From Dehalococcoidales bacterium (GTDB lineage Bacteria; Chloroflexota; Dehalococcoidia; Dehalococcoidales; UBA2162), in the NCBI GenBank assembly GCA_030648675.1, contig JAUSGV010000008.1:1-41465 (forward strand): a stretch of 41,465 nucleotides of DNA, in the 5' to 3' direction. The position numbers and the translations under genes are program-made. Of the stretch, positions 697 to 40,243 are shown one piece after another; within the stretch, counting starts at the first letter, position 1; each line of letters begins with the position of its first letter. The notes below the pieces were generated by a model that saw only the letters and a program-made list of their open reading frames with translations, did not search any database and had not been told where the DNA came from.

Positions 697-999
697 TAAA
701 AAGCTGTGAACGAGAATAGTAACTCCTGAACGGAGCTTCAGAGAGCCGCGAACGGTGTGAAACGGCGTTGCCGCTGGAAGTGAATGGCCTCGGGAGCTGC
801 AAACCGAAAGTTTGTCCCGTACTTGATACGGGATCACACGAGTAGGCTTTGACGGAAGGGCACCGTGATTAAGCCCAGGATATCGTCCCGAAATAATCGG
901 GGCAGTATCTAAGAGAGATGTCCCGATTTCGGTTGGGACAAGTAGGGTGGTACCGCGAAGGAAAACCTCTCGCCCCTACGGGCGAGAGGTTTTGTTTTT
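697..999 (+). promoter_or_regulatory. T-box leader (tRNA-Trp sensing transcription attenuator) of the trp operon
   Basis: The canonical T-box sequence GGGTGGTACCGCG sits at 945-957, just 5' of an intrinsic terminator. Stem-I-like motifs are present: AGAGAG at 740-745 and GGTGTGAAA around 754-762. A UGG codon followed by A at 775-778 is in a plausible specifier-loop position. The ~300-nt length and the position before trpE fit the class. Confidence 0.8.
962..999 (+). terminator. Intrinsic terminator of the T-box leader
   Basis: The stem cctctcgccc (966-975) pairs with gggcgagagg (980-989) across a 4-nt loop (ctac). It is followed by ttttgttttt (990-999). The 5' stem half can alternatively pair with the T-box 3' side (antiterminator logic). 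Confidence 0.75.
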
Positions 1000-2451: not shown

Positions 2452-2463
2452 GAGGGCTATAAC

Positions 2464-3042
2464 ATGCTGTTATTAATTGATAATTACGATAGTTTTACCT
2501 ATAATTTATTTCAATATCTTAGCGAGCTTGGGCAAGAGGTAACGGTGGTACGCAACGACAAGACCACTGTAGCTGATATCGAACGCATGAAACCGGAGCG
2601 TATCGTGATTTCACCCGGACCTTCTAACCCTCAGAATGCCGGCATTTCCAACGAAGTTATCCGCCATTTCGGTCCGAAATTACCCGTGTTTGGCGTTTGT
2701 CTCGGTCACCAGTGTATCGGATATGCGTACGGCGGCATCGTGAGTGGAGCCAAGCAGATAATGCACGGCAAGTCCTCACCCATTCACCACTACGGAAAGG
2801 GCGTATTTACCGGTTTACCCGACCCTTTTTCCGCCATTCGCTATCATTCATTGGTGGTAAAGCGTGAGAACCTACCCGATTGCCTGGAAATAACCGCCTG
2901 GACGGAAGACGGCGAAATCATGGGATTGCGCCACAAGTCTCACCCGGTCGAAGGAATCCAGTTTCATCCGGAATCATTCATGACCGAGTACGGCAAGGAC
3001 ATCCTGAGCAACTTTCTGAAAGGTAACAAAACACGTCTATAA
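2464..3042 (+). CDS. trpG: Anthranilate synthase component II (class-I glutamine amidotransferase)
   Basis: 192 aa with LLIDNYDSFTYNL, the GVCLGHQ nucleophile elbow and FHPES. Operon context favours trpG over pabA. Confidence 0.9.
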   Translation: MLLLIDNYDSFTYNLFQYLSELGQEVTVVRNDKTTVADIERMKPERIVISPGPSNPQNAGISNEVIRHFGPKLPVFGVCLGHQCIGYAYGGIVSGAKQIMHGKSSPIHHYGKGVFTGLPDPFSAIRYHSLVVKRENLPDCLEITAWTEDGEIMGLRHKSHPVEGIQFHPESFMTEYGKDILSNFLKGNKTRL

Positions 3043-3096
3043 TAAGTTTAGTTCTTAACGCACCTGATGCGGAATATGAGTTTATGAGGTAGCAGA

Positions 3097-4119
3097 ATGA
3101 TAAAACAGACTATATCCAGCCTGGTTGCCGGCAAATCGCTGACCATGGGAGAAGCTGCGGAAGTTATGGAGGAGATAATGAGTGGACAGGCCACTCCATC
3201 GCAGCTCGCTGCATTTCTTATTGCTCTAAGGATCAAAGGTGAAACCGTCGACGAAATATCCGGTATGGCCCGCGTTATGCGTGCCAGGGCGACGAAGGTA
3301 GACGTCGCCTTTCCCGTTACCGACGTTGTCGGCACCGGCGGTGACGGCGCCAATACTTTCAATATCTCTACTGCGGCCGCCTTTGTCGCGGCCGGAGCCG
3401 GGCTTAAAGTCGCCAAGCACGGCAACCGCGCTGCCAGCAGCCGTTCCGGTAGCGCGGATGTCCTTGAAGCTTTGGGACTTCGCCTCGACCTGACGGCGGA
3501 AGGCGTACAAAAATGTTTGGAAAAAGTTGGCATTTGTTTCATGTTTGCCGCCGCTTTTCATCCGGCGATGAAATATGCCGGACCGACTCGCCGTGAAATC
3601 GGCATCAGGACGGTCTTCAATATTCTCGGACCGCTGACTAATCCCGCCGGAGCCAGGTCACAGGTGCTCGGCGTCGCAGACGCTGCTATGATTGAGAAAA
3701 TGGTCGCGGTACTAAAAAACCTTGGGTGCCATCACGCCATGGTAGTGCACGGTGACGATGGGCTTGACGAAATCACGGTAACAGGGAGCTCGCAGGTATA
3801 CGAACTCCTGGACGGGCGGGTAGTCAAACACACTATTTCGCCACAGGATTACGGCTTTTCACGGGCCGGTTACGGCAGCTTGAAAGGCGGCACTCCCGCC
3901 GAAAATGCTAAAATATTGCAGGACGTTCTTAACGGTGCCCCGGGTGCCCAGCGCGATGTCGTATTAATAAACGCCGCCGCGGCCCTGGTATCCGGAGACA
4001 CGGCATCATCTATCAAGGAAGGTATTGAACAAGCAAAGCGTTCCATTGATACCGGCGAGGCAGCATCCAAACTGAAACAACTCGTTGCTTGCAGCCAGGA
4101 ATTCGCCCCGAAAACATAA
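3097..4119 (+). CDS. trpD: Anthranilate phosphoribosyltransferase
   Basis: 340 aa with the TrpD motifs DVVGTGGDGANTFNISTAAAFVAA and KHGNRAASS.SGSADVLEALG. Confidence 0.95.
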   Translation: MIKQTISSLVAGKSLTMGEAAEVMEEIMSGQATPSQLAAFLIALRIKGETVDEISGMARVMRARATKVDVAFPVTDVVGTGGDGANTFNISTAAAFVAAGAGLKVAKHGNRAASSRSGSADVLEALGLRLDLTAEGVQKCLEKVGICFMFAAAFHPAMKYAGPTRREIGIRTVFNILGPLTNPAGARSQVLGVADAAMIEKMVAVLKNLGCHHAMVVHGDDGLDEITVTGSSQVYELLDGRVVKHTISPQDYGFSRAGYGSLKGGTPAENAKILQDVLNGAPGAQRDVVLINAAAALVSGDTASSIKEGIEQAKRSIDTGEAASKLKQLVACSQEFAPKT

Positions 4120-4126
4120 AGCACGA

Positions 4127-4903
4127 ATGACTCTCGACGACATCGTTGCCGCTAAAAGAAAAGAGCTGGCCGGAGCCAAACGCCGCGTACCGTTACGCGA
4201 CTTGCAGAAAATGGCGTTGTCCCAACCCCATGCGCTGGATTTTGCCGCGTCGCTGATAGGCCACCGCGCTCGGCTCATCGCCGAAGTAAAAAAAGCCTCT
4301 CCTTCAGCAGGAATTATCCGGGCAGACTTTAACCCTGCCGAAATAGCTTTGATTTATGCCGATAATGGAGCTGCGGCTATTTCCGTTTTGACCGAAACCA
4401 CTTTTTTCCAGGGCAGTCTTGAATATCTGAAAGATATACGAAAGTCCGTTGGCAGCCGGTTGCCGTTATTAAGAAAAGACTTTATTTTCGACCGGTACCA
4501 GGTTTATGAAGCCCGGGCTTATGGTGCCGATTCCATTCTCCTGATCACCGCGATACTGACGCCGGACAAGCTAACGACCCTCATCAACTTGAGCCGCAAA
4601 TTGGGCATGGAACCCCTGATTGAGGTGCACAATGAACTCGAAATTACGGTCGCTTTGAAAGCCGGAGGCAAAATCATCGGTATAAACAATCGTGATTTGA
4701 CGACTTTCAAGACCGATCTGGTGACAACCATGCGTTTGCGGCCGCTTATCCCCAACGATAAAATCGTTGTGAGTGAAAGCGGCATAAAAGACCGCAATGA
4801 CGTTGCATCATTAAGGAATCAGGGTGTCAACGCCGTCCTCATCGGCGAAACGCTCATGTCTTCGTCCAATATTCCCGCGACAATGAGGGACCTTTTACAT
4901 TAG
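4127..4903 (+). CDS. trpC: Indole-3-glycerol-phosphate synthase
   Basis: The track ORF begins at a TTG (4085) inside trpD. I prefer the ATG at 4127 (MTLDDIVAAKRKEL...), 7 nt after the trpD stop. Motifs: IAEVKKASPS.G, ISVLTE..FF.GS, GINNRDL.TF. Confidence 0.9.
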   Translation: MTLDDIVAAKRKELAGAKRRVPLRDLQKMALSQPHALDFAASLIGHRARLIAEVKKASPSAGIIRADFNPAEIALIYADNGAAAISVLTETTFFQGSLEYLKDIRKSVGSRLPLLRKDFIFDRYQVYEARAYGADSILLITAILTPDKLTTLINLSRKLGMEPLIEVHNELEITVALKAGGKIIGINNRDLTTFKTDLVTTMRLRPLIPNDKIVVSESGIKDRNDVASLRNQGVNAVLIGETLMSSSNIPATMRDLLH

Positions 4904-4915
4904 GCCGCTATAGTT

Positions 4916-5593
4916 ATGACGAAGATTAAAATTTGCGGAATAACTAACGGGGAACACGGTCTGGCGGCCGCCGGAGCAGGGGCCGATGTTATCGGATTGG
5001 TTCTCGCACCCAGCCGCCGCCAGATTTCACTTGATGAAGCCGTGCCGCTGGCCTCGGTCATCCACAGTTTTAATCTACACCCGGAAATTGTCGGCGTTTT
5101 TGTAAACTTTGAGCTAAATGCCGTAAATCGTATCGCCGAAGACCTGCAATTGGATTGGGTGCAGTTAAGCGGCGGTGAATCCTGGCAGTACTGCCGGGAA
5201 ATAAAGCGGCCGGTGATCAAGGTGATCCATATTGCCGGGCAGCAAAGTGCTGATATAATAACGAGTATAGAGGCAGGCCGTCAGGCGATGGCAGACCGGA
5301 AGTTCATGTGCCTTCTCGATACATCGAAAAAGCACTTCTACGGTGGTACCGGGGAAACCTTCGATTGGGCGGTCGCGAAAAAGGTCGCCGCCCGGTTTCA
5401 AGTGATCATCGCCGGCGGGCTTACCCCGGAAAACGTAGGCCGATTAATAGAACAAGTACGTCCGTGGGGTGTCGACGTTTCTTCCGGTGTCGAGACTAAC
5501 GGACAAAAAGACACGGCAAAGATAAACGCCTTCATTCAGGCGGTACGGAAAGCAGATGACGCTTTGGGAAAAGGCAAAAAGTCCGAAGGATAG
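4916..5593 (+). CDS. trpF: Phosphoribosylanthranilate isomerase
   Basis: 225 aa starting MTKIKICGIT, with GGTGETFDW and GGL.PENV. It follows trpC after a 12-nt gap. Confidence 0.9.
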   Translation: MTKIKICGITNGEHGLAAAGAGADVIGLVLAPSRRQISLDEAVPLASVIHSFNLHPEIVGVFVNFELNAVNRIAEDLQLDWVQLSGGESWQYCREIKRPVIKVIHIAGQQSADIITSIEAGRQAMADRKFMCLLDTSKKHFYGGTGETFDWAVAKKVAARFQVIIAGGLTPENVGRLIEQVRPWGVDVSSGVETNGQKDTAKINAFIQAVRKADDALGKGKKSEG

Positions 5594-28723: not shown

Positions 28724-30685
28724 TCATCTCCTACCGATTCCGCTTTGCAGCATCAGTCCTTCCAAAAGCCTGGACAATTCTATCGTTGCAACCCCGATGA
28801 CCTTGTCCGCGCCGCCGTAATAAACAAACAAACGTCCGTTAATCACTACCGCTCCGCACGAGAAGACCACATTGGGTACCTGGCCTTCCCTTTCGTACAG
28901 CATTTCCGGCTCGAGAAGCGGTGTTTTTCTCCTTGCAATAACGCGGGTGGGGCGCTCGCTATCCAGCAACGCGGCACTCAGGTAATAGATGCGGCGGCCT
29001 TCCTTTTGCGCGACGACGTGATAAATAAGCAGCCAACCGTATTCGGTCTCTATCGGCGGCGCCGCGATACCGATCTTTTCGGCGGGCAGTTCTTCCTGTA
29101 TCGGGCTCATGATAACGCTGCCCTTTATCCACCGTCCGTCGCCGAGTTCTGCCAGATTTTCTCCCATATCCAGCCAAATGCTTACGCCGGGACGATGCAG
29201 GATGGCGAACTTGTTGCCGAACTTCCTCGGGAAAATAGCGGCATTCTTGTCCATGATACCGGGCGGCGATATTATCACCGGCTTCGCCCAGTTCCAGCGC
29301 TTTGCCAGAAAATCATCCGCCGTGATGGACGTCAGGGCGACCCTCGGTTCGCTCCTGCCGTCCCAGGCGGTATAGCACATATACAGGTCGTTCTCGATCC
29401 GGGTAATCCTGGGATCTTCGCATCCGGAGCCGACGTAGGGAGAGCGTTTGTTTTCAAAATCTTCGCGGGGCACGTAAACCGGCTGGTCCAATCTTTCGTC
29501 GAAAATAAAACCGTCCTTGCTGGCGGCGTAACCGATAACGGAGGTATTGTCTTCCGCCTGTGCACGGTATAAGAGGTGGACTTTATCGCCGGCGTAGAGT
29601 GCCGCGGTATTATAGACTGCTTTCGCTTCCCACGGATGCCGCGGGTCGGGTCGAATAATCGGGTTACCGGAATGCCGCACCAGCTTCATCTTGTTCACTT
29701 CCGGCAGGAGCATCTCTTCGATAATCGCGCTCAATTTTCCCGTCGCTACCGCGCAAGTCGTATCGGTAGCACCATAGTACAAATAAATCTGTTCGCCTTT
29801 TACGAACGCCCCCGACGGGAATATAACGTTCGGCACGCGCCCATATTTCTCGTAGACTTCCTGGGGTACCATGAGCGATTTCTGCGTCCGGGCGATGACT
29901 TTTTGCGGGTCGTCCAGGTCGAGAAGAGCAGCTTCGATGCCGAACACCGGGCGCCCGGAGAAATAGTCCTGTATATACGAATAAATCAGAAGCCACCCGA
30001 ATTGTGTCTTGATTGGCGGAGCACCGACTTCCACCTGGTCGAGGTTCGACCGCTGCAGGGGTATTACGTGGTCGTTCAGGAAGGTATACCAACCCTCCCA
30101 GTATTCGTACGACCATATCTGCTCTTCTTCGTCGAAAAGAGCGAGCCCGATCTTCGACGGCGGATTGTCTGTATTAGCCGTCAGCACGGCGGCGATCTTG
30201 CCGCCGACCCTGGCGGGAAAGAGGGCCATCGCTTTGGAATTGAACGGAGTGACACGATGCTTCTCGTCGATCTTCTTGAAGTCTCTCGTTACCGCCAGAC
30301 CGATCCGGATGCCTTCCGCGCAAAACGGACATGTAGAAAGAGCGGTGTAAAAAATGTAGTACTTTCCGCCCAGCTTCGTCACCCTCGGGTCTTCGCAGCC
30401 GTATTTTTCCCAATCGTACTCGGGCGTGATAAACTGCCGGCGCTCGCTAAAGCTTATCCCGTCGGTACTTTGCGTATAGCCGACGGTCGATACCCCCAGC
30501 TCGACGCCGGAAATTACCTGGGGCGACGACACGGCGCGGTAAAGCAGGTGGATAGTCTTTCCGCTGACGACAGGGCAGGGATTGAAGACGGCTTCCGCTT
30601 CCCATGCTTCCTCGGTAATAGGCTGCAAAATCGGATTTTCCGGGGAACGCTTGAATAGACTTACCGGCTTGGCCCCAGCACTCAT
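28724..30685 (-). CDS. Two-domain GH130-family (DUF377) glycoside phosphorylase/hydrolase-like protein
   Basis: 653 aa comprising two tandem copies of the GH130 pattern. Copy 1: NPIL.P....WE..AVFNP....LLYRA...GY..S.DG..F...YGCEDPRVTKLGGKYYIFYTA. Copy 2: GNPIIRP..HPWEAKAVYN...LLYRA...SGCEDPRITRIENDLYMCYTAWDG. Both end in LFVYYGGADK or LYYGATD. Confidence 0.8.
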   Translation of the reverse strand: MSAGAKPVSLFKRSPENPILQPITEEAWEAEAVFNPCPVVSGKTIHLLYRAVSSPQVISGVELGVSTVGYTQSTDGISFSERRQFITPEYDWEKYGCEDPRVTKLGGKYYIFYTALSTCPFCAEGIRIGLAVTRDFKKIDEKHRVTPFNSKAMALFPARVGGKIAAVLTANTDNPPSKIGLALFDEEEQIWSYEYWEGWYTFLNDHVIPLQRSNLDQVEVGAPPIKTQFGWLLIYSYIQDYFSGRPVFGIEAALLDLDDPQKVIARTQKSLMVPQEVYEKYGRVPNVIFPSGAFVKGEQIYLYYGATDTTCAVATGKLSAIIEEMLLPEVNKMKLVRHSGNPIIRPDPRHPWEAKAVYNTAALYAGDKVHLLYRAQAEDNTSVIGYAASKDGFIFDERLDQPVYVPREDFENKRSPYVGSGCEDPRITRIENDLYMCYTAWDGRSEPRVALTSITADDFLAKRWNWAKPVIISPPGIMDKNAAIFPRKFGNKFAILHRPGVSIWLDMGENLAELGDGRWIKGSVIMSPIQEELPAEKIGIAAPPIETEYGWLLIYHVVAQKEGRRIYYLSAALLDSERPTRVIARRKTPLLEPEMLYEREGQVPNVVFSCGAVVINGRLFVYYGGADKVIGVATIELSRLLEGLMLQSGIGRR

Positions 30686-31989
30686 TCGACCTTCCCTATA
30701 CGGAACATCTTACCCCCGCATTTCGGGCAAGTCCCCTGGACTGCCGGCCGGCCGTTCTTCATGGTGACGGCTTTGGGATTTTTCATGACCCGCATCTTCC
30801 GGCATTTTACACAGTAGGCCTGGATAAATTTGTTCATTACCTTATCGAACTCAGGCCCGGGGACGGGGAAAGGCAATGTCGTTACGCCGGGTACGGGCCG
30901 CGGAGTTCGTGCACCCGCCGCGAAGGTCCGACCGCCGGTCAGCTTCTTGATAAAATCGTTCAGGTCGGTAAAAGCAACGCAAGTTACTTTATCCGCCCCT
31001 CCATAATAGACAAACAAGCGGCCGCCGATTACTGCGGCTCCGCACGGGTAAACGACGCCTGCTTTCCAGCCTTCGTTTTCATATTTCTCCACCGGCTCCA
31101 AAAGCGGTTCGTCGGCGCAGTAGATCACCTTCGCCGGGTTTTTAAGGTCGAGCAGCATCGCTCCTATCTTGTAGCGTCCTGGATCGCGCTCGCCTATCCC
31201 CTGGTAGATAAGCAGCCAACCGGCTTTAGTCTTGATGGGGGGAGCACCGGCACCTACCTTGCGGCTGTCCCAGTAGTCAGCCCGGGGTTTTATCCTAAAG
31301 TCGCCTCGCAACCATCTGGTTTTACCGTCGAAATTCAAATCGTCGACGAAATCGATGAGGATATCGGGGTAAACGCGGTGGAATATAACGTATTTCGATC
31401 CGATCTTCTCCGGCAAAATGCAGGCATTCTTGTTAACGACACCGGGGCGGGATATAAGTACCGGCCGCTCCCAGCGCCATCGCCTGGCAAGAAAATCTCC
31501 GGCCAGTATCGAGGTCAAGGCAACCCGAGGCGGACTGTATCCGTCGTAAGCCACGTAGGTCATGTATATCCGGTCGCCGATCCGGGTTAACCTCGGGTCT
31601 TCACATCCGCCGGCACCTCCTCCCCCTGATAGGTAGGCGACTTCTCTTACCTTTTCCTCTTCGGCTTCACCATTTCCCGCAACAAGATAGGTGACGTGGT
31701 GATCGTCCGCAGAGAGCGACAACAGGCTGGAGCCGTCGTAAGCCCCTTCGGTACGGTAAATGGGGTAGGTCAATCGCTCGTCGACGTGAAATCCGTCGGT
31801 GCTGCAGGCATACCCGAGGACCGATTGATCGGAATCGCCGATAGCGCGGTAAACGATGTGGACTTTGCCGCCTTCATAGATAGCCGCCGGATTAAAAGCT
31901 GCCTTCGATTCCCAACCGAGACCGAGTCTCGGCTCGAGGATAGGATTGCCGGCGTACCTTTCCAGAACAGGGCGAAACTTCATGTCCAA
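30682..31989 (-). CDS. GH130-family domain fused to a C-terminal C4 zinc ribbon (DUF5679-like)
   Basis: 435 aa with GNPILEP..GWESKAAFNP...IVYRA, GGCEDPRLTRIGDRIYMTYVAYDG and LFVYYGGADK. A Pro-rich linker leads to CVKCRKMRVMKNPKAVTMKNGRPAVQGTCPKCGGKMFRIGK (nt about 30685-30813). Its TGA overlaps the ATG of the next gene (ATGA at 30682-30685). Confidence 0.8.
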   Translation of the reverse strand: MDMKFRPVLERYAGNPILEPRLGLGWESKAAFNPAAIYEGGKVHIVYRAIGDSDQSVLGYACSTDGFHVDERLTYPIYRTEGAYDGSSLLSLSADDHHVTYLVAGNGEAEEEKVREVAYLSGGGGAGGCEDPRLTRIGDRIYMTYVAYDGYSPPRVALTSILAGDFLARRWRWERPVLISRPGVVNKNACILPEKIGSKYVIFHRVYPDILIDFVDDLNFDGKTRWLRGDFRIKPRADYWDSRKVGAGAPPIKTKAGWLLIYQGIGERDPGRYKIGAMLLDLKNPAKVIYCADEPLLEPVEKYENEGWKAGVVYPCGAAVIGGRLFVYYGGADKVTCVAFTDLNDFIKKLTGGRTFAAGARTPRPVPGVTTLPFPVPGPEFDKVMNKFIQAYCVKCRKMRVMKNPKAVTMKNGRPAVQGTCPKCGGKMFRIGKVE

Positions 31990-33123: not shown

Positions 33124-35087
33124 GGCAAACTTTTTCTCAGTTCCACGATGCGGTCGCGCAGAAGGGCGGCTTTCTCGAATTCCAGGTTTCTTGCCGCCGC
33201 CTTCATCTGCGATTCGAGATCCTTTATCAAACGGGCTATCTCGTCCGGCGAGGTCGGACCGGCAGCATAGGAAGCCTGCGGCTCGGCGACAGATTTGAAT
33301 CTTTCGCTGATGTCCTTTATCGCTTTTTTAATGCCCTGCGGGGTAATACCATGGTTCCGGTTGTACTCTTCCTGGATCCCCCGGCGGCGGACAATCTCGT
33401 CGATGGCCGCTTTCATGGAACCGGTGACGGTATCGGCGTACATGATGACGTGTCCGTCGATATGCCGCGCGGCACGCCCCATGGTCTGTATCAGAGCGCC
33501 GCCAGACCTTAAATACCCCTCTTTATCGGCGTCGAGGATGGCCACGAGACTTACTTCGGGCAGATCCAGCCCCTCTCTCAGGAGGTTGATACCGACGATG
33601 ACGTCGTAAACGCCAAGGCGCAGGTCGCGCAATATCTCGACCCTTTCCAGCGTAACGACCTCGGAGTGCAGATAGTGCGTCTTGATGCCCATCTCCCCCA
33701 GGTAATCGGCCAGCTCTTCCGCCATCCGTTTAGTCAAGGTGGTGACCAGGCAACGTTCGCCCTTGTCCACACGCATTCTAATTTGCGCGATCAAATCGTC
33801 GATCTGCCCCCTGGTCGGATTGACCTCAATGGTCGGTTCGAGAAGTCCGGTAGGACGTACGAGTTGCTCCACCACCTGCTGGCTGTGCTCCAGTTCATAA
33901 GGCCCCGGCGTGGCCGAGGTATAGATCACCTGGTTGACGTGCTGCTGGAACTCTTCGAAGTTAAACGGCCGGTTATCGAGAGCGGAGGGCAAACGGAACC
34001 CGTAATCGATGAGGGTCTGCTTGCGCGACCGGTCGCCTTTATACATGCCGCGTATTTGCGGCAGACTCATATGCGATTCGTCGATAAACAGCAGGTAATC
34101 CTCGGGAAAGTAGTCGATAAGCGTCCACGGAGGACTGCCGGGAGCTCTTTCGGAAAGGTGGCGGGAATAATTCTCGACACCGGAGCAGTAACCGGCTTCG
34201 CGCATCATTTCGAGGTCGTAATGCGTCCGGGAATCGAGACGGGCGGCTTCGACAAGCTTCCCCTGCCCCTTTAATTCCGTCAGCCGCCCGTCCAACTCCT
34301 TTTCGATGTTCACGATCGCCCGCTGCAGCTTTTCCGCCGAGGTCACGAAGTGTTTTGCCGGATAAATATCTATAGATTGGAGTTCGGCAAGGATTTCGCC
34401 GGTAAGCGGGTCGATTTCAACAATACGCTCCACGTCGTCGCCGAAAAATTCGATGCGCAAAGCCAGGTCTTCGTATGCCGGCTGAATTTCCAGCGTGTCA
34501 CCCCGGATGCGGAACCGGCCGCGGGTAAAATCGACATCGTTCCGCTCGTACTGCATGTCGACCAGGGAATGGAGCAGCTTGTGCCGGTTGTAGGTTTGTC
34601 CTCGTTTCAGGCTGAGAACGAAACTGCGGTACTCTTCCGGGGAGCACAAACCGTAGATGCACGATACCGACGCCACAATGACCACGTCGCGGCGTTCGAA
34701 GAGCGCCCTGGTAGCAGCGTGGCGGAGCTTATCGATCTCTTCGTTGATATCAGCGTCCTTTTCAATATAAACATCGTTTTGGGGAATGTAAGCCTCAGGC
34801 TGATAATAATCGTAATAACTCACGAAGTATTCAACGGCGTTGTTGGGCAGGAACTCCTTGAATTCCTGGTAGAGCTGGGCAGCCAACGTTTTGTTGTGGC
34901 TGATGACGAGGGCGGGCCGCCTTGATTGAGCGATTACGTTGGCCATAGTAAAGGTTTTACCGCTTCCGGTCACGCCGAGCAAAGTCTGGTGTTTGTAGCC
35001 GTGCTGAAGCCCCTCGACCAGTTTGGCCGCCGCCTGCGGCTGGTCGCCCATCATCTTGAAATCGGAGACAATTTCGAATTCAGGCAT
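33120..35087 (-). CDS. uvrB: Excinuclease ABC subunit B
   Basis: 655 aa with [18 protein letters not shown], helicase motifs and the C-terminal UVR domain [13 protein letters not shown]. It shares a convergent 4-nt overlap with the rlmN-like gene. Confidence 0.97.
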
Positions 35088-35350
35088 TGTTGTTACTCAA
35101 GGATTAGTATAACGTCCGTCAGGTTTGGCGTTCAAATAGTACCTTTTTGCAACCGAAATTGGATTCGTTTTTCCTGCATGGATATGATAATCCGAGCGTT
35201 TGTGCAACGTCTTGCCAGCTCCGGGACATTTATTGTTAGCCTAAAGTTAATCTAAAATACTTCTTTCGAATAATGTCGCACGCAGGCCGCTTAGATATAG
35301 TTGAATCGTTGATGATCAAAGGTCTGTCGGTTTTGAGGAAAGGCAACATT

Positions 35351-35587
35351 ATGGAACTATTTGGTGAAATCCAGAGCATGATCGGCCAAAGACTTAGCGT
35401 CGACCCTGAAAAAGTGACCAGAGACGCTCATCTCCAGTTTGACCTGGGAGCTGATTCGCTGGCGATTTTGAACCTGTCAGCCGATATCAGCCGTAAATAT
35501 GGTATAGAGGTACTTGGCGAAGATATCGTGGAATTGGAGAACGTCGGTAAACTGGTTGCCTTGGTTGAGTCAAAAGTCGGTACTTAG
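35351..35587 (+). CDS. Acyl/peptidyl carrier protein-like (78 aa), non-canonical helix II
   Basis: The ATG at 35351 follows a GAGGAAAGG SD by 7 nt; the track start at 35273 has no SD. The DLGADSLAI motif provides the phosphopantetheine Ser. The downstream segment LNLSADISRKYGIEV lacks the acidic run of fatty-acid-synthase AcpP. Confidence 0.8.
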   Translation: MELFGEIQSMIGQRLSVDPEKVTRDAHLQFDLGADSLAILNLSADISRKYGIEVLGEDIVELENVGKLVALVESKVGT

Positions 35588-35666
35588 ATTGAAAGAATTT
35601 CACGATATTCTTCTTCATCACTGATTTTTTCCGGTCCTATTATCTATAAATATATGGAGGTGTCCG

Positions 35667-37412
35667 ATGGACTACCCGAGGATTATCAAAGGGCGTCTGG
35701 ATAGCTTTCGTGTAAAGCCAAATATTCCCGATTACCAAAAGATGCGTGATAATTTCAGGTGGGAAGAAATTTCTTCTGAACTTGCATGGTTCGACAATGA
35801 GCATATTAACATCGGACACGTCGCTGCGGATGCCCACCTGGAAACCGACCGCCGGAATAAAAAAGCACTTATATGGGAAAGCCAAAGAGGCGAAGTTGAA
35901 GAGTTCACGTTTGCGAATCTCGCAAAATTAAGTAATAAGTTTGCAAACATTCTGGTAAATGAGGCCGGCGTTCTTCGGGGAGATAGAGTTTTCTTCTTTC
36001 TTGAGCGCGTCCCTGAGATATTTGTCGGGATTTTAGGTACCCTCAAGGCCGGGGCTGTCTTTGGCCCGCTATTTTCAGCCTTTGGGCCCGACGCTGTCAG
36101 AGACCGTCTGTTCGACAGCAAGGCAAAGGTGCTGGTAACCAGTCCGTCGCTGAAAAGGAAAATCGCTGAAATCATTCCAGGTCTGCCGAACCTGGAAAAG
36201 ATTATCGTGGTCAACCGGAAAAATGATGTACTCGATGCTGACGACCTTTCTTACGAAGCGGCGATGGAGCGTGCTTCCGAAAACTTCCAAACTGTTCATA
36301 CCAATAAAGAAGACTACGCCATCATGCATTATACTTCGGGCACTACCGGGAAACCAAAAGGTGCCGTTCATGTGCACAACGCCGTTATCGGCCACTATGC
36401 TACGGCAAAATATGTTCTTGACCTTCATTCCGATGATATCTACTGGTGTACGGCTGACCCAGGCTGGGTAACCGGCACGTCATACGGAATGTTTGGTCCC
36501 TGGTCAAACGGTATTACTCAGTTCGTGTACGAAGGCGTGTTTAGCGCCAGACAATGGTACAAAATGCTTGAGAAGTGGAAGGTGACAGTCTGGTACACGG
36601 CCCCGACGGCTATTAGAATGCTGATGAAAGCCGGGGATGATTTGCCCGGAAAGTTCGATTTGAACTCTGTACGCCATGTCTGCAGCGTAGGCGAGCCGCT
36701 GAATCCGGAAGCCGTAATGTGGGGAGAACGGGTCTTAGGAAAATCCATACACGATAACTGGTGGCAGACTGAAACGGGGTCCATCATGATCGCCAATTAT
36801 GCGATCCAGGATATCAAACCGGGTTCGATGGGACGTCCTTTCCCTGGCATTACCGCCGGTATTATCGATGATAACTTCGATGAACTGCCCGCCGGCCAGG
36901 AAGGAAATCTTGCAGTAAGGACAGGTTGGCCTTCCATGTTTCGTACCTACTGGGGGAAACACGACTTGTACCAATCGCGCTTCAAGAAGGGGTGGTATAT
37001 AACCGGCGATAGGGCTCGCACAGATGACGAGGGATATTTTCATTTTATAAGCCGTGCTGATGACGTCATCAACTCGGCCGGTCATAAAGTCGGGCCGTTT
37101 GAAGTGGAATCGGTATTGATGGAGCATCCTGCAGTTGCCGAAGCGGGGGTTATCGGGAAGCCCGACCCGATAACTACGGAAGTGATAAAAGCGTTCGTCT
37201 CCCTTAAAAGAGGCTTCGAGCCAGGGGAAGATCTGAAGGAAGACATTAAAAGATTCGCCATGAAGCGCCTCTCAATGGCTGCTGCTCCCCGAGAAATTGA
37301 TTTTGTAGATTCCCTTCCTAAAACGCGCAGCGGCAAGATCATGCGCAGGCTTCTGAAGGCCAAAGAACTTGGGTTGCCACTAGGCGACACGTCGACTCTT
37401 GAAAACGATTGA
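35667..37412 (+). CDS. AMP-forming acyl/acetyl-CoA synthetase, Bacillus AcsA-like
   Basis: 581 aa with a GGAGGTG SD. Motifs: YTSGTTGKPKG, WCTADPGWVTG, WWQTETG, YITGD and the terminal LPKTRSGKIMRRLLKAKELGLPLGDTSTLEND. From memory, it is very similar end to end to B. subtilis AcsA. Confidence 0.88.
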   Translation: MDYPRIIKGRLDSFRVKPNIPDYQKMRDNFRWEEISSELAWFDNEHINIGHVAADAHLETDRRNKKALIWESQRGEVEEFTFANLAKLSNKFANILVNEAGVLRGDRVFFFLERVPEIFVGILGTLKAGAVFGPLFSAFGPDAVRDRLFDSKAKVLVTSPSLKRKIAEIIPGLPNLEKIIVVNRKNDVLDADDLSYEAAMERASENFQTVHTNKEDYAIMHYTSGTTGKPKGAVHVHNAVIGHYATAKYVLDLHSDDIYWCTADPGWVTGTSYGMFGPWSNGITQFVYEGVFSARQWYKMLEKWKVTVWYTAPTAIRMLMKAGDDLPGKFDLNSVRHVCSVGEPLNPEAVMWGERVLGKSIHDNWWQTETGSIMIANYAIQDIKPGSMGRPFPGITAGIIDDNFDELPAGQEGNLAVRTGWPSMFRTYWGKHDLYQSRFKKGWYITGDRARTDDEGYFHFISRADDVINSAGHKVGPFEVESVLMEHPAVAEAGVIGKPDPITTEVIKAFVSLKRGFEPGEDLKEDIKRFAMKRLSMAAAPREIDFVDSLPKTRSGKIMRRLLKAKELGLPLGDTSTLEND

Positions 37413-37426
37413 GCGAGGTAACCTTG

Positions 37427-38248
37427 ATGCTGCTTCCCGAGGATTTTTTCGACTTGCAGGAATACGAACACGGGGACGTATTTCAGCCCGATGCACCGGT
37501 GTGGACTGCACTCGACCGCTTACCCGCTTATATCGCTTCGTTTTTTAATAGGACATGGCCGCTATTTAACTACGTCGGGACTGTGGACAGGCCACTGGTC
37601 ATCATAGGCTCCACCGTACGGAACGACCTGGACATCCGTCCCTCGGGAGCCAATAACGTAGTTCAAGCTTTTGAAGGCGAAAGTCTCGTAGAAAACGCGG
37701 CTATTATCATGCCCGGCGCGTACCTGTTCGATAATAGAATTATTGTTGGCCCGCGCACCGTGATCGAACCAGGCGTGCTTATTAAAGGACCGACCATACT
37801 CGGCGCCGATACTAAAGTGCGTCAAGGCGCGTACCTGCGGGGTAATTGCCTTATAGGGAACCGCTGCGTCGTTGGCCACACAACGGAGATTAAGGGTTCC
37901 ATCATGATGGATGGAGCGAAAGCGGGCCACTTCGCCTACATTGGCGACAGCATCCTCGGCAAAGACGTAAACCTCGGGGCTGGCACCAAACTGGCAAATC
38001 TGAAAATCATTCCCGGACCGATTACAATTGCAGCTAACAGAAAACACTACAAAACTAACCGCCGCAAGCTTGGTGCTATCCTTGGCGACCGGACTGAAAC
38101 CGGTTGCAATTCAGTCGCTTCACCCGGCACGTTGATGGAGCGTGACTCTATCGTGTTTCCCTGCACCGCCGTACCGGGTGGATACTATCCGAGAAAATCT
38201 AATATCCGGCCGTCCCCTCCTTGCATTGAAATCGGAGATAGCCGTTAA
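37427..38248 (+). CDS. Left-handed beta-helix (hexapeptide-repeat) acyltransferase, GlmU C-terminal-domain-like, without a nucleotidyltransferase domain
   Basis: The ATG at 37427 lies 8 nt after a GAGG and 14 nt after the ligase stop. Hexapeptide repeats run from about IIVGPRTVIEPGVLIKGPTILGADTKV. GHFAYIGDSILGKDVNLGAGTKLANLK resembles the GlmU acetyltransferase core. The roughly 90-aa N-terminal region is not recognisable. Confidence 0.78.
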   Translation: MLLPEDFFDLQEYEHGDVFQPDAPVWTALDRLPAYIASFFNRTWPLFNYVGTVDRPLVIIGSTVRNDLDIRPSGANNVVQAFEGESLVENAAIIMPGAYLFDNRIIVGPRTVIEPGVLIKGPTILGADTKVRQGAYLRGNCLIGNRCVVGHTTEIKGSIMMDGAKAGHFAYIGDSILGKDVNLGAGTKLANLKIIPGPITIAANRKHYKTNRRKLGAILGDRTETGCNSVASPGTLMERDSIVFPCTAVPGGYYPRKSNIRPSPPCIEIGDSR

Positions 38249-38333
38249 GACGGGACCGCAAGTGCCAGATATCCTGTCATATTTTGAAAACATGGTTATT
38301 TGTTGAAATAGGCAGTCGAAAAGGCTTGTCAAA

Positions 38334-38714
38334 ATGAGAATAGAAGTAAACAAGTTTGGGATAGGAGTCGATATCGAAAATATCGACCGCTTCGCCGGCT
38401 CTGATTTTGTCCGGGATAGCGCAATTGTGAACAGTATATTTACCCAGAGTGAACAGGAATATTGTTTTTTGTATAAAATTGCCGCTCCTCATCTCGCCGC
38501 CAGGTATTGTGCCAAGGAGGCGATTACAAAGGCGCTGGCAAGTATCGGTACTAACGGCATCAATTACAAAGACATAGAAATAATCAACGAACAGGCCGGG
38601 CCTCCAGTGGCCGTAATTGAAAAAGAAGGCGTTCACGATTTGCAGGTATACCTTAGCCTTTCACATTGCAATGACAAGGCTGTGGCTTTCGCAGTTATCA
38701 TCCGGACAATCTAA
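38334..38714 (+). CDS. acpS: Holo-[acyl-carrier-protein] synthase (AcpS-type 4'-phosphopantetheinyl transferase)
   Basis: 126 aa with GIGVDIENIDRF, LAARYCAKEAITKAL and LSLSHCNDKAVAFAVI, the typical AcpS pattern. Confidence 0.85.
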   Translation: MRIEVNKFGIGVDIENIDRFAGSDFVRDSAIVNSIFTQSEQEYCFLYKIAAPHLAARYCAKEAITKALASIGTNGINYKDIEIINEQAGPPVAVIEKEGVHDLQVYLSLSHCNDKAVAFAVIIRTI

Positions 38715-38789
38715 TTTTTACCCTTGCCGGAATATGTAAAAACAATCATACCAACGATACTTCAGCAGACCGATGTCTCCCAAAATCGT

Positions 38790-39587
38790 TCACCGCGCAA
38801 AAATAACGCGGTTGACCGCTTTGGCGACGCCGCTGTGTTCGGCATCGAGGGTAACGTGGTGGGCGATCGCTTTCAATTCATCCGAAGCGTCACCCATCGC
38901 TACGGCGAAGCCCACCCTGGAAAGGATCGAGGCATCATTCGCCCCGTCGCCGACGGCCATCACTTCATCCAAAGCTATATCTATGAACGAAGTCAATATC
39001 TCGATGGCATTGCCTTTTGAAACCCCGGGGGCCAGGACGTTCACAAAATCAACGCCGGGAAAAGTGGGCGTCCGGTTCGTTGAAAAACAAAGGGTATCGC
39101 CGAATTGCCGCCGGAAAGAGGCGGCTTTTTTCTTTTCTGCCGCAGAACGGGCCACGATCGTCCCCTTGATAATTCTTTCTTCGCGCTCTATCAGGGCAAA
39201 ATCGGTGATAATCGGCTGGGAGTGGAACGCCTGTCGTCGGACATCCCCCATCCACGAATCCCGTTCGATAAAAAGCCGGTTGTCGGAATATAGCTCGATA
39301 TCGATCCCGCTGTCGTGAGCATAGGCGATTATCTTTTCCACCATAGCGGCCGATATCGGTTCGGCGAAAACCTCATGATTCAATTTCGGATCGCTGACTA
39401 GAGCCCCGTCGAAAGTAGTGTGGAAACCGTCCAGCCCCAGTTCGTTGATAAGAGGCAGACAGGCGGTAACCGACCGTCCGCTGGCAAGAGAAACCTTTAT
39501 TCCTGATGAAACGACCCGGGCTAGAGCTTGTTTGTCCTCGTCTGAAACTGTACCCCCCTTATTCAACAACGTACCGTCGATATCCAA
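38790..39587 (-). CDS. Cof-type HAD-IIB phosphatase (true start probably upstream of the track start)
   Basis: Motifs: DIDGTLL, SGR and the C-terminal GDG.ND. The track start is a TTG immediately before the nucleophile Asp. The in-frame upstream sequence encodes IENRIKLLVL, the expected first beta-strand, but has no ATG, GTG or TTG. Confidence 0.8.
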   Translation of the reverse strand: MDIDGTLLNKGGTVSDEDKQALARVVSSGIKVSLASGRSVTACLPLINELGLDGFHTTFDGALVSDPKLNHEVFAEPISAAMVEKIIAYAHDSGIDIELYSDNRLFIERDSWMGDVRRQAFHSQPIITDFALIEREERIIKGTIVARSAAEKKKAASFRRQFGDTLCFSTNRTPTFPGVDFVNVLAPGVSKGNAIEILTSFIDIALDEVMAVGDGANDASILSRVGFAVAMGDASDELKAIAHHVTLDAEHSGVAKAVNRVIFAR

Positions 39588-39727
39588 TACCAGGAGCTTA
39601 ATGCGATTTTCGATGGGATAATTCCTTTGCCGTGTAATTTCGCAGCTAGATCAATTCTTAACGCGAGCTTTACTATTATAGGCTACGCGACGTTATGTAA
39701 GCAACGCCAGGGTGTATACTGTACCCC

Positions 39728-40243
39728 ATGAACGGCGTCTTGACCAAACGTGATATCCGCAAACTTATCGAGCAAAATCCTCCGCTCATACAGGGTTACG
39801 TCGACCTCGAAACACAATTGCAGCCCAACGGCCTGGACATGACCGTTCGCGATATCGCTTCGATGGATAACGCCGGGCAGATCGCGGCCAGCGATAAAGA
39901 CAGGCGGGTCTCCAAAACCAGCCTCCTGAGTTTCGACGCTTTCGGTTTTATCGACCTAGAGCCCGGCCCTTACATGGTCACCTACAACGAGATCGTTACC
40001 CTGCCCGTAAACGTCATGGCACTAGCCCGCCCGAGGTCAAGTCTGCTCCGCTGCGGCGTTACGGTCGGAGCGGCAGTCTGGGATGCCGGGTACTCCGGGC
40101 GGTCGCAGTCGCTGCTGGTCGTATACAATCCGCACGGTTTCCGCCTGCAAAAGAACGCACGAATATTGCAGCTTGTTTTTTTTACGCTGACACAGGAAAC
40201 GCAAGGTTATAACGGAGCCTACCAGAAAGAAAACATCAAGTAG
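39728..40243 (+). CDS. dCTP deaminase/dUTPase-superfamily protein (probable dUTP diphosphatase)
   Basis: 171 aa with LQPNGLDMTV, RPRSSLLRCGV, VWDAGYSG and the QLVF pattern of the trimeric DCD-DUT fold. Confidence 0.75.
   Translation: MNGVLTKRDIRKLIEQNPPLIQGYVDLETQLQPNGLDMTVRDIASMDNAGQIAASDKDRRVSKTSLLSFDAFGFIDLEPGPYMVTYNEIVTLPVNVMALARPRSSLLRCGVTVGAAVWDAGYSGRSQSLLVVYNPHGFRLQKNARILQLVFFTLTQETQGYNGAYQKENIK

What the first reader, a model, noticed from the sequence alone, without database searches (positions are those of the whole stretch)
35351..38714. Self-contained carrier-protein module: ACP-like protein, AcsA-type ligase, GlmU-C-like LbH acyltransferase and AcpS, with no fab genes nearby
Four same-strand genes are separated by gaps of 79, 14 and 85 nt.

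1. A 78-aa carrier protein has the DLGADSLA phosphopantetheinylation motif. Its helix II region is neutral to basic (LNLSADISRKYGIEV) rather than the acidic helix of fatty-acid-synthase AcpP.
2. A 581-aa AMP-forming ligase is nearly collinear with Bacillus-type acetyl-CoA synthetase.
3. A 273-aa left-handed beta-helix transferase has a core resembling the GlmU acetyltransferase domain. It lacks any nucleotidyltransferase domain and has an unrecognisable ~90-aa N-terminus.
4. An AcpS-type PPTase closes the set.

No fabD, fabH, fabF, fabG or fabZ gene is adjacent.

LbH enzymes that take their acyl group from a carrier protein are established (LpxA, LpxD). Adenylating ligases that load a carrier protein are also established (DltA/DltC, acyl-ACP synthetases). 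The inference is a dedicated short-chain acylation pathway: the PPTase primes the private carrier, the ligase activates acetate or another small acid onto CoA or the carrier, and the LbH enzyme transfers it to an unknown amine or hydroxyl acceptor. I do not know of this four-gene arrangement having been described, but I cannot search for it.
Basis: partly seen in the sequence, partly recalled or inferred. Interest (0 to 1): 0.7.

Follow-up and report, generated by a model that had tools for sequence, protein, structure and literature searches.

The report
Acetate ligase, private carrier, acetyltransferase operon
A gene set conserved across anaerobic bacteria and some archaea ties an acetate-activating enzyme to its own small carrier protein and a GlmU-type acetyltransferase, which points to an undescribed way of handing on acetyl groups; the product is still unknown.

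Summary
The four genes are real, at the stated coordinates. They are a carrier protein (PF00550), a Bacillus-type AcsA ligase that passes NCBI's acetate-CoA ligase cut-off, a stand-alone GlmU/ST0452-type beta-helix acetyltransferase (LbH), and an AcpS. No fab genes lie in the 41-kb Dehalococcoidales contig.

Comparative genomics changes the picture. The conserved unit is [PIG-L deacetylase]-ACP-ligase-LbH. In metagenome loci holding this ACP subfamily:
- the ligase follows directly in 54/56;
- LbH follows in 23/23;
- a PIG-L deacetylase precedes in 24/48;
- AcpS follows in only 1/19.

All four genes recur in Hydrothermarchaeota archaea and in a Dehalococcoidales subclade. One relative has two AcpS paralogues, and the module-linked one is the window's orthologue. 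So this is not fatty-acid-synthase ACP plus neighbours.

The LbH family also occurs alone in about half of the genomes, and with the ligase but no ACP in a few. All its active-site residues are invariant in every context. The LbH therefore does not strictly need this carrier.

Most likely the ligase activates acetate to a phosphopantetheine thioester, on the private ACP and/or CoA. The LbH then N-acetylates an amino-sugar-phosphate-like acceptor. PIG-L hints at a deacetylate/re-acetylate relay. I found no description of this cluster in the searched literature.

The parts
35351..35587 (+). Private acyl-carrier-type protein (78 aa). Ser36 lies in the DLGADSLA motif and helix II is non-acidic.
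   Evidence: PF00550 at 43.5 bits, but below all AcpP equivalog cut-offs (for example TIGR00517, 50.6 against 70.45). AF2 four-helix fold, pLDDT 91.6. The subfamily sits directly upstream of the ligase in 54/56 loci. The start codon is fixed by family alignment (M1 invariant in A3) and a GAGGA motif.
35667..37412 (+). AcsA-type AMP-forming acetate ligase (581 aa).
   Evidence: NF003313 acetate-CoA ligase at 876 bits (cut-off 729). 51% identical and collinear with AcsA structure 9g79. Acetate-pocket residues of S. enterica Acs V310/T311/V386/W414 correspond to V268/T269/V341/W366 here, A357 to A312 and the catalytic K609 to K557 (alignment; residue roles from my own knowledge of Gulick/Reger work). 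65% identical to the archaeal module ligase and 72% to the Syntrophus one.
37427..38248 (+). Stand-alone left-handed beta-helix N-acetyltransferase of the ST0452/GlmU C-terminal-domain type (273 aa). It has a conserved ~55-aa N-terminal helical cap and no nucleotidyltransferase domain.
   Evidence: TIGR03992 positions 246-392, 146 bits. Profile against PDB gives E 4e-32 to ST0452 residues 243-390. AF2 pLDDT 92, and the top Foldseek hits are 5z09/5z0a/2ggo. H168/Y171/N191 align with ST0452 H308/Y311/N331. 39 columns are invariant in 109 family members.
38334..38714 (+). AcpS-type 4'-phosphopantetheinyl transferase (126 aa). It is a lineage-specific add-on to the module.
   Evidence: PF01648 at 57 bits and TIGR00556 at 64 bits (cut-off 45). 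It is adjacent to the module in close relatives L087, L088, L091 and L175, and divergently in L093. It is 37% identical to the AcpS that ends the archaeal module. In L175 a second AcpS paralogue, only 32% identical to the module copy, lies 6.7 kb away.

Best explanation
This is one copy of a laterally spread operon whose conserved core is [PIG-L deacetylase]-ACP-AcsA-type ligase-GlmU/ST0452-type LbH acetyltransferase. Here and in archaea it is completed by an AcpS.

Proposed mechanism:
1. AcpS converts the private carrier to its holo form. This is inferred from family membership.
2. The ligase adenylates free acetate. The acetate pocket and catalytic Lys are shown to be conserved. It then forms an acetyl-phosphopantetheine thioester, preferentially on the private carrier and possibly also on CoA. 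The thiol acceptor is inferred only from the near-obligate ACP-ligase adjacency.
3. The trimeric LbH enzyme uses that thioester to N-acetylate an amino-sugar-1-phosphate-like amine. The fold and catalytic His/Tyr/Asn are shown; the acceptor identity is inferred from the ST0452/GlmU resemblance.

Where PIG-L is present, the set would remove an acetyl group from one (amino-sugar) intermediate, recapture the acetate with ATP, and put it back on a later intermediate. This is the same logic as NagA -> GlmM -> GlmU in amino-sugar recycling.
For: Unit conserved:
- ACP-ligase adjacency in 54/56 loci, LbH after it in 23/23, PIG-L before it in 24/48.
- The trio or pair recurs in Desulfobacterota, Chloroflexota and Hydrothermarchaeota genomes.
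- The ligase-LbH link appears in at least three separate LbH lineages.

Not fatty-acid-synthase ACP:
- It fails the AcpP equivalogs and has a non-acidic helix II.
- There are no fab genes in 41 kb.
- It is present, with its own AcpS, on archaeal contigs that carry NMD3 and Hdr/Mvh genes.
- L175 has two AcpS paralogues, and the module-linked one is orthologous to the window's.

Acetate as the acid:
- Equivalog score 876 against a cut-off of 729, and all four acetate-pocket residues are kept.
- The archaeal ligase also passes the cut-off (916 bits).

LbH as an amino-sugar-phosphate acetyltransferase:
-; active-site columns invariant.

PIG-L identity: PF02585 at 41.7 bits against a cut-off of 28.2.
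Against: - LbH occurs without ACP or ligase in 38 of 79 genome loci, and with the ligase but no ACP within 10 kb in L003, L042 and L050.
- LbH proteins from ACP modules share no distinguishing residues with each other compared with stand-alone ones. Only one I/L column differs.
- The ligase is indistinguishable by motifs from bona fide CoA-forming AcsA.
- A deacetylase plus an acetyl-specific re-acetylation looks futile unless the two steps act on different intermediates.
- This window itself has no PIG-L gene.
- No biochemical or expression data exist.
Confidence: 0.45

Rival explanations
1. The ligase is an ordinary acetyl-CoA synthetase and the LbH uses acetyl-CoA, as GlmU and ST0452 do. 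The two are clustered simply so that acetate is turned into the donor for the N-acetylation. The carrier protein has another role, for example modulating or buffering the ligase, or serving an unrelated partner.
For: - The ligase passes the acetate-CoA ligase equivalog and is 51% identical to a solved AcsA.
- Ligase-LbH pairs exist without ACP (L003, L042, L050).
- LbH stands alone in 38 of 79 loci, sometimes beside a CoA_binding_2 protein.
- The LbH active site is invariant in all contexts.
- Alcohol dehydrogenase and aldehyde:ferredoxin oxidoreductase genes, which would make acetate, lie next to the module in L003 and L005.
Against: It gives no reason for a dedicated ACP subfamily to sit directly upstream of the ligase in 54/56 loci and never elsewhere except L132. 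It also does not explain why archaea and a Dehalococcoidales clade add a PPTase to the operon.
Confidence: 0.3
2. This is an acyl-swap pathway like LpxC -> LpxD. PIG-L removes an N-acetyl group, and the ligase/ACP/LbH trio installs a different short acyl group (propionyl, glycolyl or similar) on the freed amine.
For: PIG-L is directly upstream in 24/48 loci. Deacetylase followed by an ACP-dependent LbH N-acyltransferase is the established LpxC/LpxD logic (own knowledge). This reading avoids a futile acetyl cycle.
Against: All four residues that restrict Acs to acetate, including the Trp of WWQTETG, are conserved in the window, bacterial and archaeal ligases. The LbH is closest to acetyl-specific GlmU/ST0452 and scores only weakly against LpxA/LpxD models (E about 1e-5 to 1e-8, far below their cut-offs).
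Confidence: 0.1
3. This is a regulatory set for AcsA, analogous to Bacillus acsA-acuABC. The LbH acetyltransferase and the PIG-L deacetylase would switch the ligase (or the carrier) on and off by acetylation.
For: An acetyltransferase and a zinc-type deacetylase flank an AcsA orthologue that keeps the regulatory/catalytic Lys in PKTRSGK. 9g79 carries a 572-aa AcsA chain. That the entry is a complex with AcuA is my own recollection; one search lists only the AcsA chain.
Against: LbH enzymes of the GlmU type are small-molecule acetyltransferases, and the residues that bind the sugar phosphate in GlmU/ST0452 are invariant here. The LbH family is widespread without any adjacent ligase. This reading explains neither the ACP nor the AcpS.
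Confidence: 0.07
4. The adjacency is chance: housekeeping acpP, acs, an unrelated LbH gene and acpS happen to lie together.
For: The window is otherwise a housekeeping region. AcpS relatives 52-67% identical stand alone elsewhere.
Against: The ACP-ligase-LbH order is conserved across phyla and domains. The ACP is not AcpP-like.
Confidence: 0.03

Closest known systems
GlmU C-terminal domain / Sulfolobus tokodaii ST0452 amino-sugar-1-phosphate N-acetyltransferase
   Same: Left-handed beta-helix fold. It shares the long insertion loop (ANLx...RRKLG) seen in ST0452. The catalytic His and the Tyr/Asn/Arg/Glu/Lys positions are conserved.
   Different: There is no nucleotidyltransferase domain. It is a stand-alone 273-aa protein with its own strongly conserved ~55-aa N-terminal cap. 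It scores at half the TIGR03992 cut-off (146 against 292). It is genetically tied to an acetate ligase and a carrier protein, whereas GlmU and ST0452 use free acetyl-CoA.
Bacillus-type acetyl-CoA synthetase AcsA (NF003313/PRK04319; PDB 9g79)
   Same: It is collinear with AcsA at 51% identity and scores above the equivalog cut-off. The acetate pocket, pantetheine-tunnel Ala and catalytic Lys are kept.
   Different: It is encoded immediately after a dedicated carrier protein in 54/56 loci and before an LbH acetyltransferase. The module ligases stay 65-72% identical across bacterial phyla and archaea. The thiol acceptor is untested.
DltA/DltC, and other stand-alone ANL adenylating enzymes paired with a small carrier protein (AsbC/AsbD, acyl-ACP synthetases)
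   Same: A free-standing ANL ligase is encoded beside a dedicated ~80-aa carrier protein, and an acyltransferase follows.
   Different: The ligase here is an AcsA orthologue for acetate, not an amino-acid, aryl or fatty-acid adenylating enzyme. The acyltransferase is an LbH, not an MBOAT or a condensation enzyme.
Acetate:[acyl-carrier-protein] ligases CitC (EC 6.2.1.22) and MadH (EC 6.2.1.35) of citrate lyase and malonate decarboxylase (own knowledge)
   Same: They are precedents for ATP-dependent formation of acetyl-S-carrier protein from free acetate.
   Different: CitC and MadH belong to an unrelated protein family. They act on a 2'-(5-phosphoribosyl)-3'-dephospho-CoA prosthetic group, not on an AcpS-installed phosphopantetheine of a PF00550 protein.
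LpxC -> LpxD (deacetylase, then acyl-ACP-dependent LbH N-acyltransferase) and NagA -> GlmM -> GlmU (deacetylate, isomerise, re-acetylate)
   Same: A deacetylase gene (PIG-L) and an LbH N-acyltransferase gene are clustered around a thioester-generating step. An ACP-dependent LbH has precedent in LpxA and LpxD.
   Different: PIG-L is unrelated to LpxC and NagA. The LbH is GlmU-like rather than LpxD-like. The acyl group is predicted to be acetyl. No mutase or nucleotidyltransferase gene is conserved nearby.

Membership tests
Fatty-acid-synthase AcpP (TIGR00517 / NF002148-51) | Scores above the curated AcpP equivalog cut-off | tested here: not met
   TIGR00517 at 50.6 bits against 70.45. The best subfamily model scores 55.6 against 71.
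Fatty-acid-synthase AcpP (TIGR00517 / NF002148-51) | Acidic recognition helix II | tested here: not met
   Helix II has 0-3 acidic and 1-2 basic residues in 16 family members.
Fatty-acid-synthase AcpP (TIGR00517 / NF002148-51) | Encoded in or near a fab cluster | tested here: not met
   There are no fab genes in the 41-kb window or beside the ACP in related loci, where the neighbours are the ligase, LbH and PIG-L.
Phosphopantetheine-binding carrier protein (PF00550) | Passes the Pfam gathering score, has the DSL serine, and has a four-helix fold with the Ser at the start of helix II | tested here: met
   43.5 bits against 20.8. D35-S36-L is invariant. AF2 helices are 2-14, 36-50, 56-60 and 65-76, pLDDT 91.6.
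Acetate-CoA ligase, Bacillus type (NF003313) | Scores above the equivalog cut-off over the full length | tested here: met
   876.4 bits against 729, covering residues 11-579 of 581.
Acetate-CoA ligase, Bacillus type (NF003313) | Acetate-restricting pocket (S. enterica V310, T311, V386, W414) and the catalytic Lys of motif A10 | tested here: met
   These align to V268, T269, V341, W366 and K557. The residue roles come from my own knowledge of the Acs literature.
Acetate-CoA ligase, Bacillus type (NF003313) | CoA is the physiological thiol acceptor | not testable with these tools
   The R191/R194 loop of the long Acs is absent from all short AcsA enzymes, including 9g79, so motifs do not discriminate. 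An enzyme assay is needed.
Bifunctional GlmU / archaeal GlmU (TIGR01173, TIGR03992) | N-terminal sugar-1-phosphate nucleotidyltransferase domain | tested here: not met
   Only model positions 246-392 of 393 match. The score is 146 against a cut-off of 292. There is no NTP_transferase Pfam hit.
Bifunctional GlmU / archaeal GlmU (TIGR01173, TIGR03992) | LbH acetyltransferase domain with the catalytic His (ST0452 H308 / E. coli H363) and Tyr/Asn partners | tested here: met
   H168, Y171 and N191 align to ST0452 H308, Y311 and N331 and are invariant in 109 sequences. The top Foldseek hits are ST0452 and GlmU.
Bifunctional GlmU / archaeal GlmU (TIGR01173, TIGR03992) | Acceptor is GlcN-1-P or GalN-1-P and the donor is acetyl-CoA | not testable with these tools
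   Inferred from residue conservation only.
Acyl-ACP-dependent LbH acyltransferases LpxA/LpxD | Scores above the LpxA or LpxD model cut-offs | tested here: not met
   LpxD NF002060 at 33 bits against 207. LpxA NF003657 at 27.5 bits against 226.
Holo-ACP synthase AcpS (PF01648 / TIGR00556) | Passes the Pfam and domain-level cut-offs at ~120-aa single-domain size | tested here: met
   PF01648 at 57.3 bits against 25. TIGR00556 at 64 bits against 45.35. The protein is 126 aa. It falls below the equivalog TIGR00516 (48.2 against 59.8).
Conserved [PIG-L]-ACP-ligase-LbH module (defined here) | ACP of this subfamily directly upstream of the AcsA-type ligase, directly upstream of the LbH, all on the same strand | tested here: met
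   Window coordinates. The family pattern holds in 54/56 and 23/23 loci.
Conserved [PIG-L]-ACP-ligase-LbH module (defined here) | PIG-L/LmbE deacetylase directly upstream of the ACP | tested here: not met
   uvrB lies upstream on the other strand. tblastn with the PIG-L protein finds nothing in the window (best E 0.95). PIG-L is present in 24/48 related loci.

The most novel reading that the evidence does not exclude
A subset of proteins annotated as acetyl-CoA synthetase are in fact acetate:carrier-protein ligases. Together with a private ACP they would form an acetyl relay kept apart from the CoA pool. That relay would feed a stand-alone GlmU-type N-acetyltransferase. The system has moved as a cassette between Chloroflexota, Desulfobacterota and archaea, which otherwise lack ACP and AcpS.
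Probability: 0.35. Interest if true: 0.75.

Novelty: new variant of a known kind. Interest (0 to 1): 0.6.

Why it matters
- If the carrier is the ligase's real acceptor, this would be the first acetate-specific ANL ligase shown to load a PF00550 carrier protein.
- It would show that equivalog-level 'acetate-CoA ligase' annotations hide a second activity in hundreds of anaerobe genomes.
- It would be a rare case of a working ACP/AcpS pair in archaea.
- It would define a stand-alone GlmU-type acetyltransferase family, present in at least 597 species-level genomes, whose substrate is unknown.
- Even under the conservative reading (acetyl-CoA as intermediate), the conserved pairing of acetate activation with an amino-sugar-type N-acetylation and a PIG-L deacetylase points to an undescribed acetyl-salvage or glycan-precursor route. 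Its hosts are syntrophs, sulfate reducers and Dehalococcoidia.

Tried and rejected
- CoA-binding residues of the ligase. The R191/R194 loop of S. enterica Acs is missing here, but it is missing equally from the genuine 572-aa AcsA 9g79. R584 aligns to M532 with K533 and R534 next to it. Not discriminating.
- ACP-specific residues in LbH. I looked for columns shared by bacterial and archaeal module LbH proteins but not by stand-alone ones. Only one conservative I/L column turned up.
- HAD phosphatase as a fifth member. The window's convergent Cof-type HAD and the archaeal upstream HAD are unrelated. The archaeal one is a phosphoglycolate phosphatase equivalog. Treated as coincidence.
- Promoter and terminator scan of 34900-39800. 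The numbers found were no higher than in shuffled sequence.
- Syntrophus Acs1 (SYN_02635). It is the long ~74-kDa Acs, not this short form.
- Literature searches for the gene combination, DET1209, SYN_01222-4, MadH and Hydrothermarchaeota ACP found no description of the cluster.

Full report
**Observation**

The window is a 41,465-bp contig of a Dehalococcoidales MAG: the ACP and AcpS are 100% identical to NCBI proteins from a contig of exactly that length. Four same-strand ORFs lie at 35351-35587, 35667-37412, 37427-38248 and 38334-38714, with gaps of 79, 14 and 85 nt. The first three starts have plausible Shine-Dalgarno motifs; the one before AcpS is weaker.

Family assignments:
- The first protein is a PF00550 carrier protein. 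It fails every AcpP equivalog cut-off.
- The second passes the Bacillus-type acetate-CoA ligase equivalog NF003313 (876 bits, cut-off 729).
- The third matches only the C-terminal acetyltransferase half of archaeal GlmU (TIGR03992 positions 246-392) and has no nucleotidyltransferase domain.
- The fourth is an AcpS-type PPTase.

The rest of the window is housekeeping and has no fab gene. It holds a T-box-led trp operon, ValRS, PolX, SecA, PRPP synthetase, SHMT, RNase J, FtsK, MscL, two GH130 genes, a radical-SAM gene and UvrB. After the module come a Cof-type HAD, dCTP deaminase and dCMP deaminase.

**The parts**

*ACP.* The ACP model is a four-helix bundle with Ser36 at the start of helix II (pLDDT 91.6). 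Helix II carries 0-3 acidic residues across the family.

*Ligase.* It is 51% identical and collinear with the solved 572-aa AcsA 9g79. Alignment to S. enterica Acs shows that the acetate-pocket residues V310, T311, V386 and W414, the tunnel residue A357 and the catalytic K609 are all retained. The roles of those residues come from my knowledge of the Gulick/Reger structures. The CoA 3'-phosphate loop (R191/R194) is absent, but it is equally absent from genuine short AcsA. Sequence therefore cannot say whether CoA or a carrier is the thiol acceptor.

*LbH.* The LbH model is confident (pLDDT 92). Its best structural and profile matches are the acetyltransferase domain of Sulfolobus ST0452, followed by bacterial GlmU. 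H168, Y171 and N191 align with ST0452 H308, Y311 and N331. The roles of those residues are from my own knowledge. The beta-helix starts near residue 57, so the 'unknown N-terminus' is a ~55-residue helical cap. That cap is very well conserved; W26 is invariant in 109 sequences.

**Is the arrangement conserved?**

They are mostly Desulfobacterota, with Chloroflexota, Nitrospirota, Actinomycetota, Clostridia and Hydrothermarchaeota as well. Of the 79 loci that could be scored:
- 25 have the AcsA-type ligase directly upstream of LbH, and 18 of those also have the ACP;
- 38 have LbH alone, with enough flank to judge;
- 20 are cut by contig ends.

All four genes, in the same order, occur in three contigs from two Hydrothermarchaeota MAGs. 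One of these contigs also carries NMD3 and Hdr/Mvh genes, so it is archaeal.

A ~250-280-aa PIG-L/LmbE-family deacetylase sits directly upstream of the ACP in 13 of these loci and in two further Chloroflexota-like contigs.

The reciprocal scan used the ACP alignment against metagenome contigs. It gave 69 loci with an ACP of this subfamily:

| Neighbour | Loci with it / loci with room to judge |
|---|---|
| Ligase directly downstream | 54/56 |
| LbH after the ligase | 23/23 |
| PIG-L directly upstream | 24/48 |
| AcpS downstream | 1/19 |

The two loci without a ligase are L126, with only 550 nt of downstream sequence, and L132, a related ACP next to a sucrose synthase gene. Some contigs are duplicates, so these are not independent counts, but the pattern is unambiguous.

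**AcpS**

Relatives of the window's AcpS at 65-74% identity lie on contigs whose lengths match those of module LbH and ACP hits. One of them, L175, was confirmed as ACP-ligase-LbH-AcpS. Relatives at 52-67% identity stand alone in unrelated contexts.

L175 carries a second AcpS 6.7 kb away. It is only 32% identical to the module copy and 33% identical (over a 78-residue local alignment) to the window's. The archaeal module AcpS is 37% identical to the window's.

AcpS is therefore a lineage-specific addition. At least once it is an extra, module-linked paralogue. It is not part of the conserved core.

**What the comparative data say about mechanism**

The gene sets are nested: LbH alone, then ligase-LbH, then ACP-ligase-LbH, then PIG-L-ACP-ligase-LbH. 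On a rough neighbour-joining tree, nearly all ACP-containing modules fall in one LbH clade. The archaeal four-gene modules and a ligase-LbH-only group sit in other clades, among stand-alone LbH genes. Identities to the window proteins for the archaeal module, with the Syntrophus ligase for comparison:

| Protein | Archaeal module | Syntrophus module |
|---|---|---|
| Ligase | 65% | 72% |
| LbH | 49-50% | not compared |
| ACP | 32% | not compared |
| AcpS | 37% | not compared |

The cassette has evidently moved between phyla and domains.

Thirty-nine LbH columns, including all putative catalytic and substrate-binding residues, are invariant whatever the context. No residues distinguish ACP-linked from stand-alone LbH proteins. 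No ACP is detectable within 10 kb in L003, L042, L050 or several LbH-only loci.

My reading is as follows:
- The LbH reaction is the same everywhere. The enzyme can work without this carrier, presumably with acetyl-CoA.
- The ligase supplies the acetyl thioester from free acetate.
- The private ACP is an accessory of the ligase step. The acetyl-phosphopantetheine arm that enters an LbH active site is chemically the same on CoA and on ACP, so both donors are plausible.
- PIG-L suggests that acetate is released from one intermediate and put back on another. This is the same logic as NagA -> GlmM -> GlmU in amino-sugar recycling (own knowledge).

In two phyla the module lies next to alcohol dehydrogenase and aldehyde:ferredoxin oxidoreductase genes, which would generate acetate.

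**Comparison with known systems**

The closest precedents, all from my own knowledge, are:
- ANL ligase plus dedicated carrier pairs (DltA/DltC, AsbC/AsbD);
- acetate:carrier-protein ligases of an unrelated family (CitC, MadH);
- acyl-ACP-dependent LbH enzymes (LpxA, LpxD);
- deacetylase-then-acylate logic (LpxC/LpxD).

By every sequence test run here the ligase is a member of the AcsA family. The LbH works like the GlmU/ST0452 acetyltransferase domain but is not a bifunctional GlmU. The ACP is a PF00550 protein but not an AcpP. The characterised Syntrophus Acs1 is the long form and is not part of such a module.

**Verdict**

However:
- AcpS is not a conserved member;
- a PIG-L deacetylase is the commoner fourth gene;
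- the LbH does not depend on the carrier across its family.

I put 0.45 on the carrier-mediated acetyl relay to an amino-sugar-phosphate-like acceptor. I put 0.30 on the same pathway running through acetyl-CoA with the ACP in another role. The remaining probability is spread over an acyl-swap pathway, an Acu-like regulatory set and chance adjacency.

This is a new variant of a known kind of system, with interest 0.6.

Noticed in passing
window 697-980 (+), upstream of 1012-5593: A T-box leader (RF00230, 98 bits against a gathering score of 93) directly precedes trpE, trpG, trpD, trpC and trpF. The tryptophan operon of this Dehalococcoidales MAG is therefore T-box controlled.
   Followed up: no
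window 28724-31989 (-): Two adjacent GH130 (mannoside phosphorylase family) genes. One is a 653-aa protein with two GH130 matches. The other is a GH130 fused to a C-terminal DUF5679 zinc-ribbon-like domain.
   Followed up: no
L009:6899-7744, L089:5025-5768, L090:4586-5329 and 20+ metagenome loci: A PIG-L/LmbE-family deacetylase (PF02585) lies directly upstream of the ACP on the same strand in about half of the module copies. It is absent from this window. NCBIfam gives only faint BshB-like similarity.
   Followed up: partly
L175:3-335 and L175:7001-7381: A Chloroflexota MAG (GCA_016190675.1) has two AcpS paralogues within 7 kb. The one ending the module is 72% identical to the window's AcpS. 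The other is only about 32% identical to the module copy.
   Followed up: yes
L173:1483-13375: An AcpS 55% identical to the window's sits inside a sugar-modification cluster: LbH, two DegT aminotransferases, an oxidoreductase, an epimerase, methyltransferases, a 78-aa ORF, a ketoreductase, a second LbH, a B12 radical-SAM enzyme and FkbH_N. This looks like carrier-protein-dependent N-acylation of an amino sugar.
   Followed up: no
L003:3699-5982 and L005:1-2893: Iron alcohol dehydrogenase, aldehyde:ferredoxin oxidoreductase and URO-D-family genes flank the module in a Deltaproteobacterium and in a Dehalococcoidia-like contig. They suggest a link to ethanol, acetaldehyde or acetate metabolism.
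   Followed up: no
L001, L011; L068, L078-L080, L083; L039, L043, L046, L049, L052, L060: Stand-alone LbH genes have three recurrent contexts of their own. One is downstream of RapZ. One is between a CoA_binding_2 protein and a small class-I methyltransferase. One is in the order PolyA_pol/CCA-like enzyme, 80-aa ORF, LbH, HU, methyltransferase.
   Followed up: partly
L037:9911-11198: The LbH is followed 17 nt later by an AcpS-type gene, yet no ACP or AcsA-type ligase lies within 10 kb on either side.
   Followed up: partly
window 37427-37600 (LbH residues 1-56): The N-terminal cap of the LbH is highly conserved (F7, F8, D22, V25, W26, L29-L32, Y35, F40, P45, L46; W26 invariant in 109 sequences). 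From my knowledge of GlmU structures, the acetyltransferase active site lies at the opposite end of the beta-helix, so the cap should be far from it. The cap has no assigned role.
   Followed up: partly
window 38790-39587 (-) and L056:7142-7912: A HAD-IIB phosphatase borders the module both here (Cof-type, convergent) and in the archaeal locus (same strand, upstream). The two are unrelated beyond the superfamily, and the archaeal one is a phosphoglycolate phosphatase equivalog. This is probably coincidence.
   Followed up: yes
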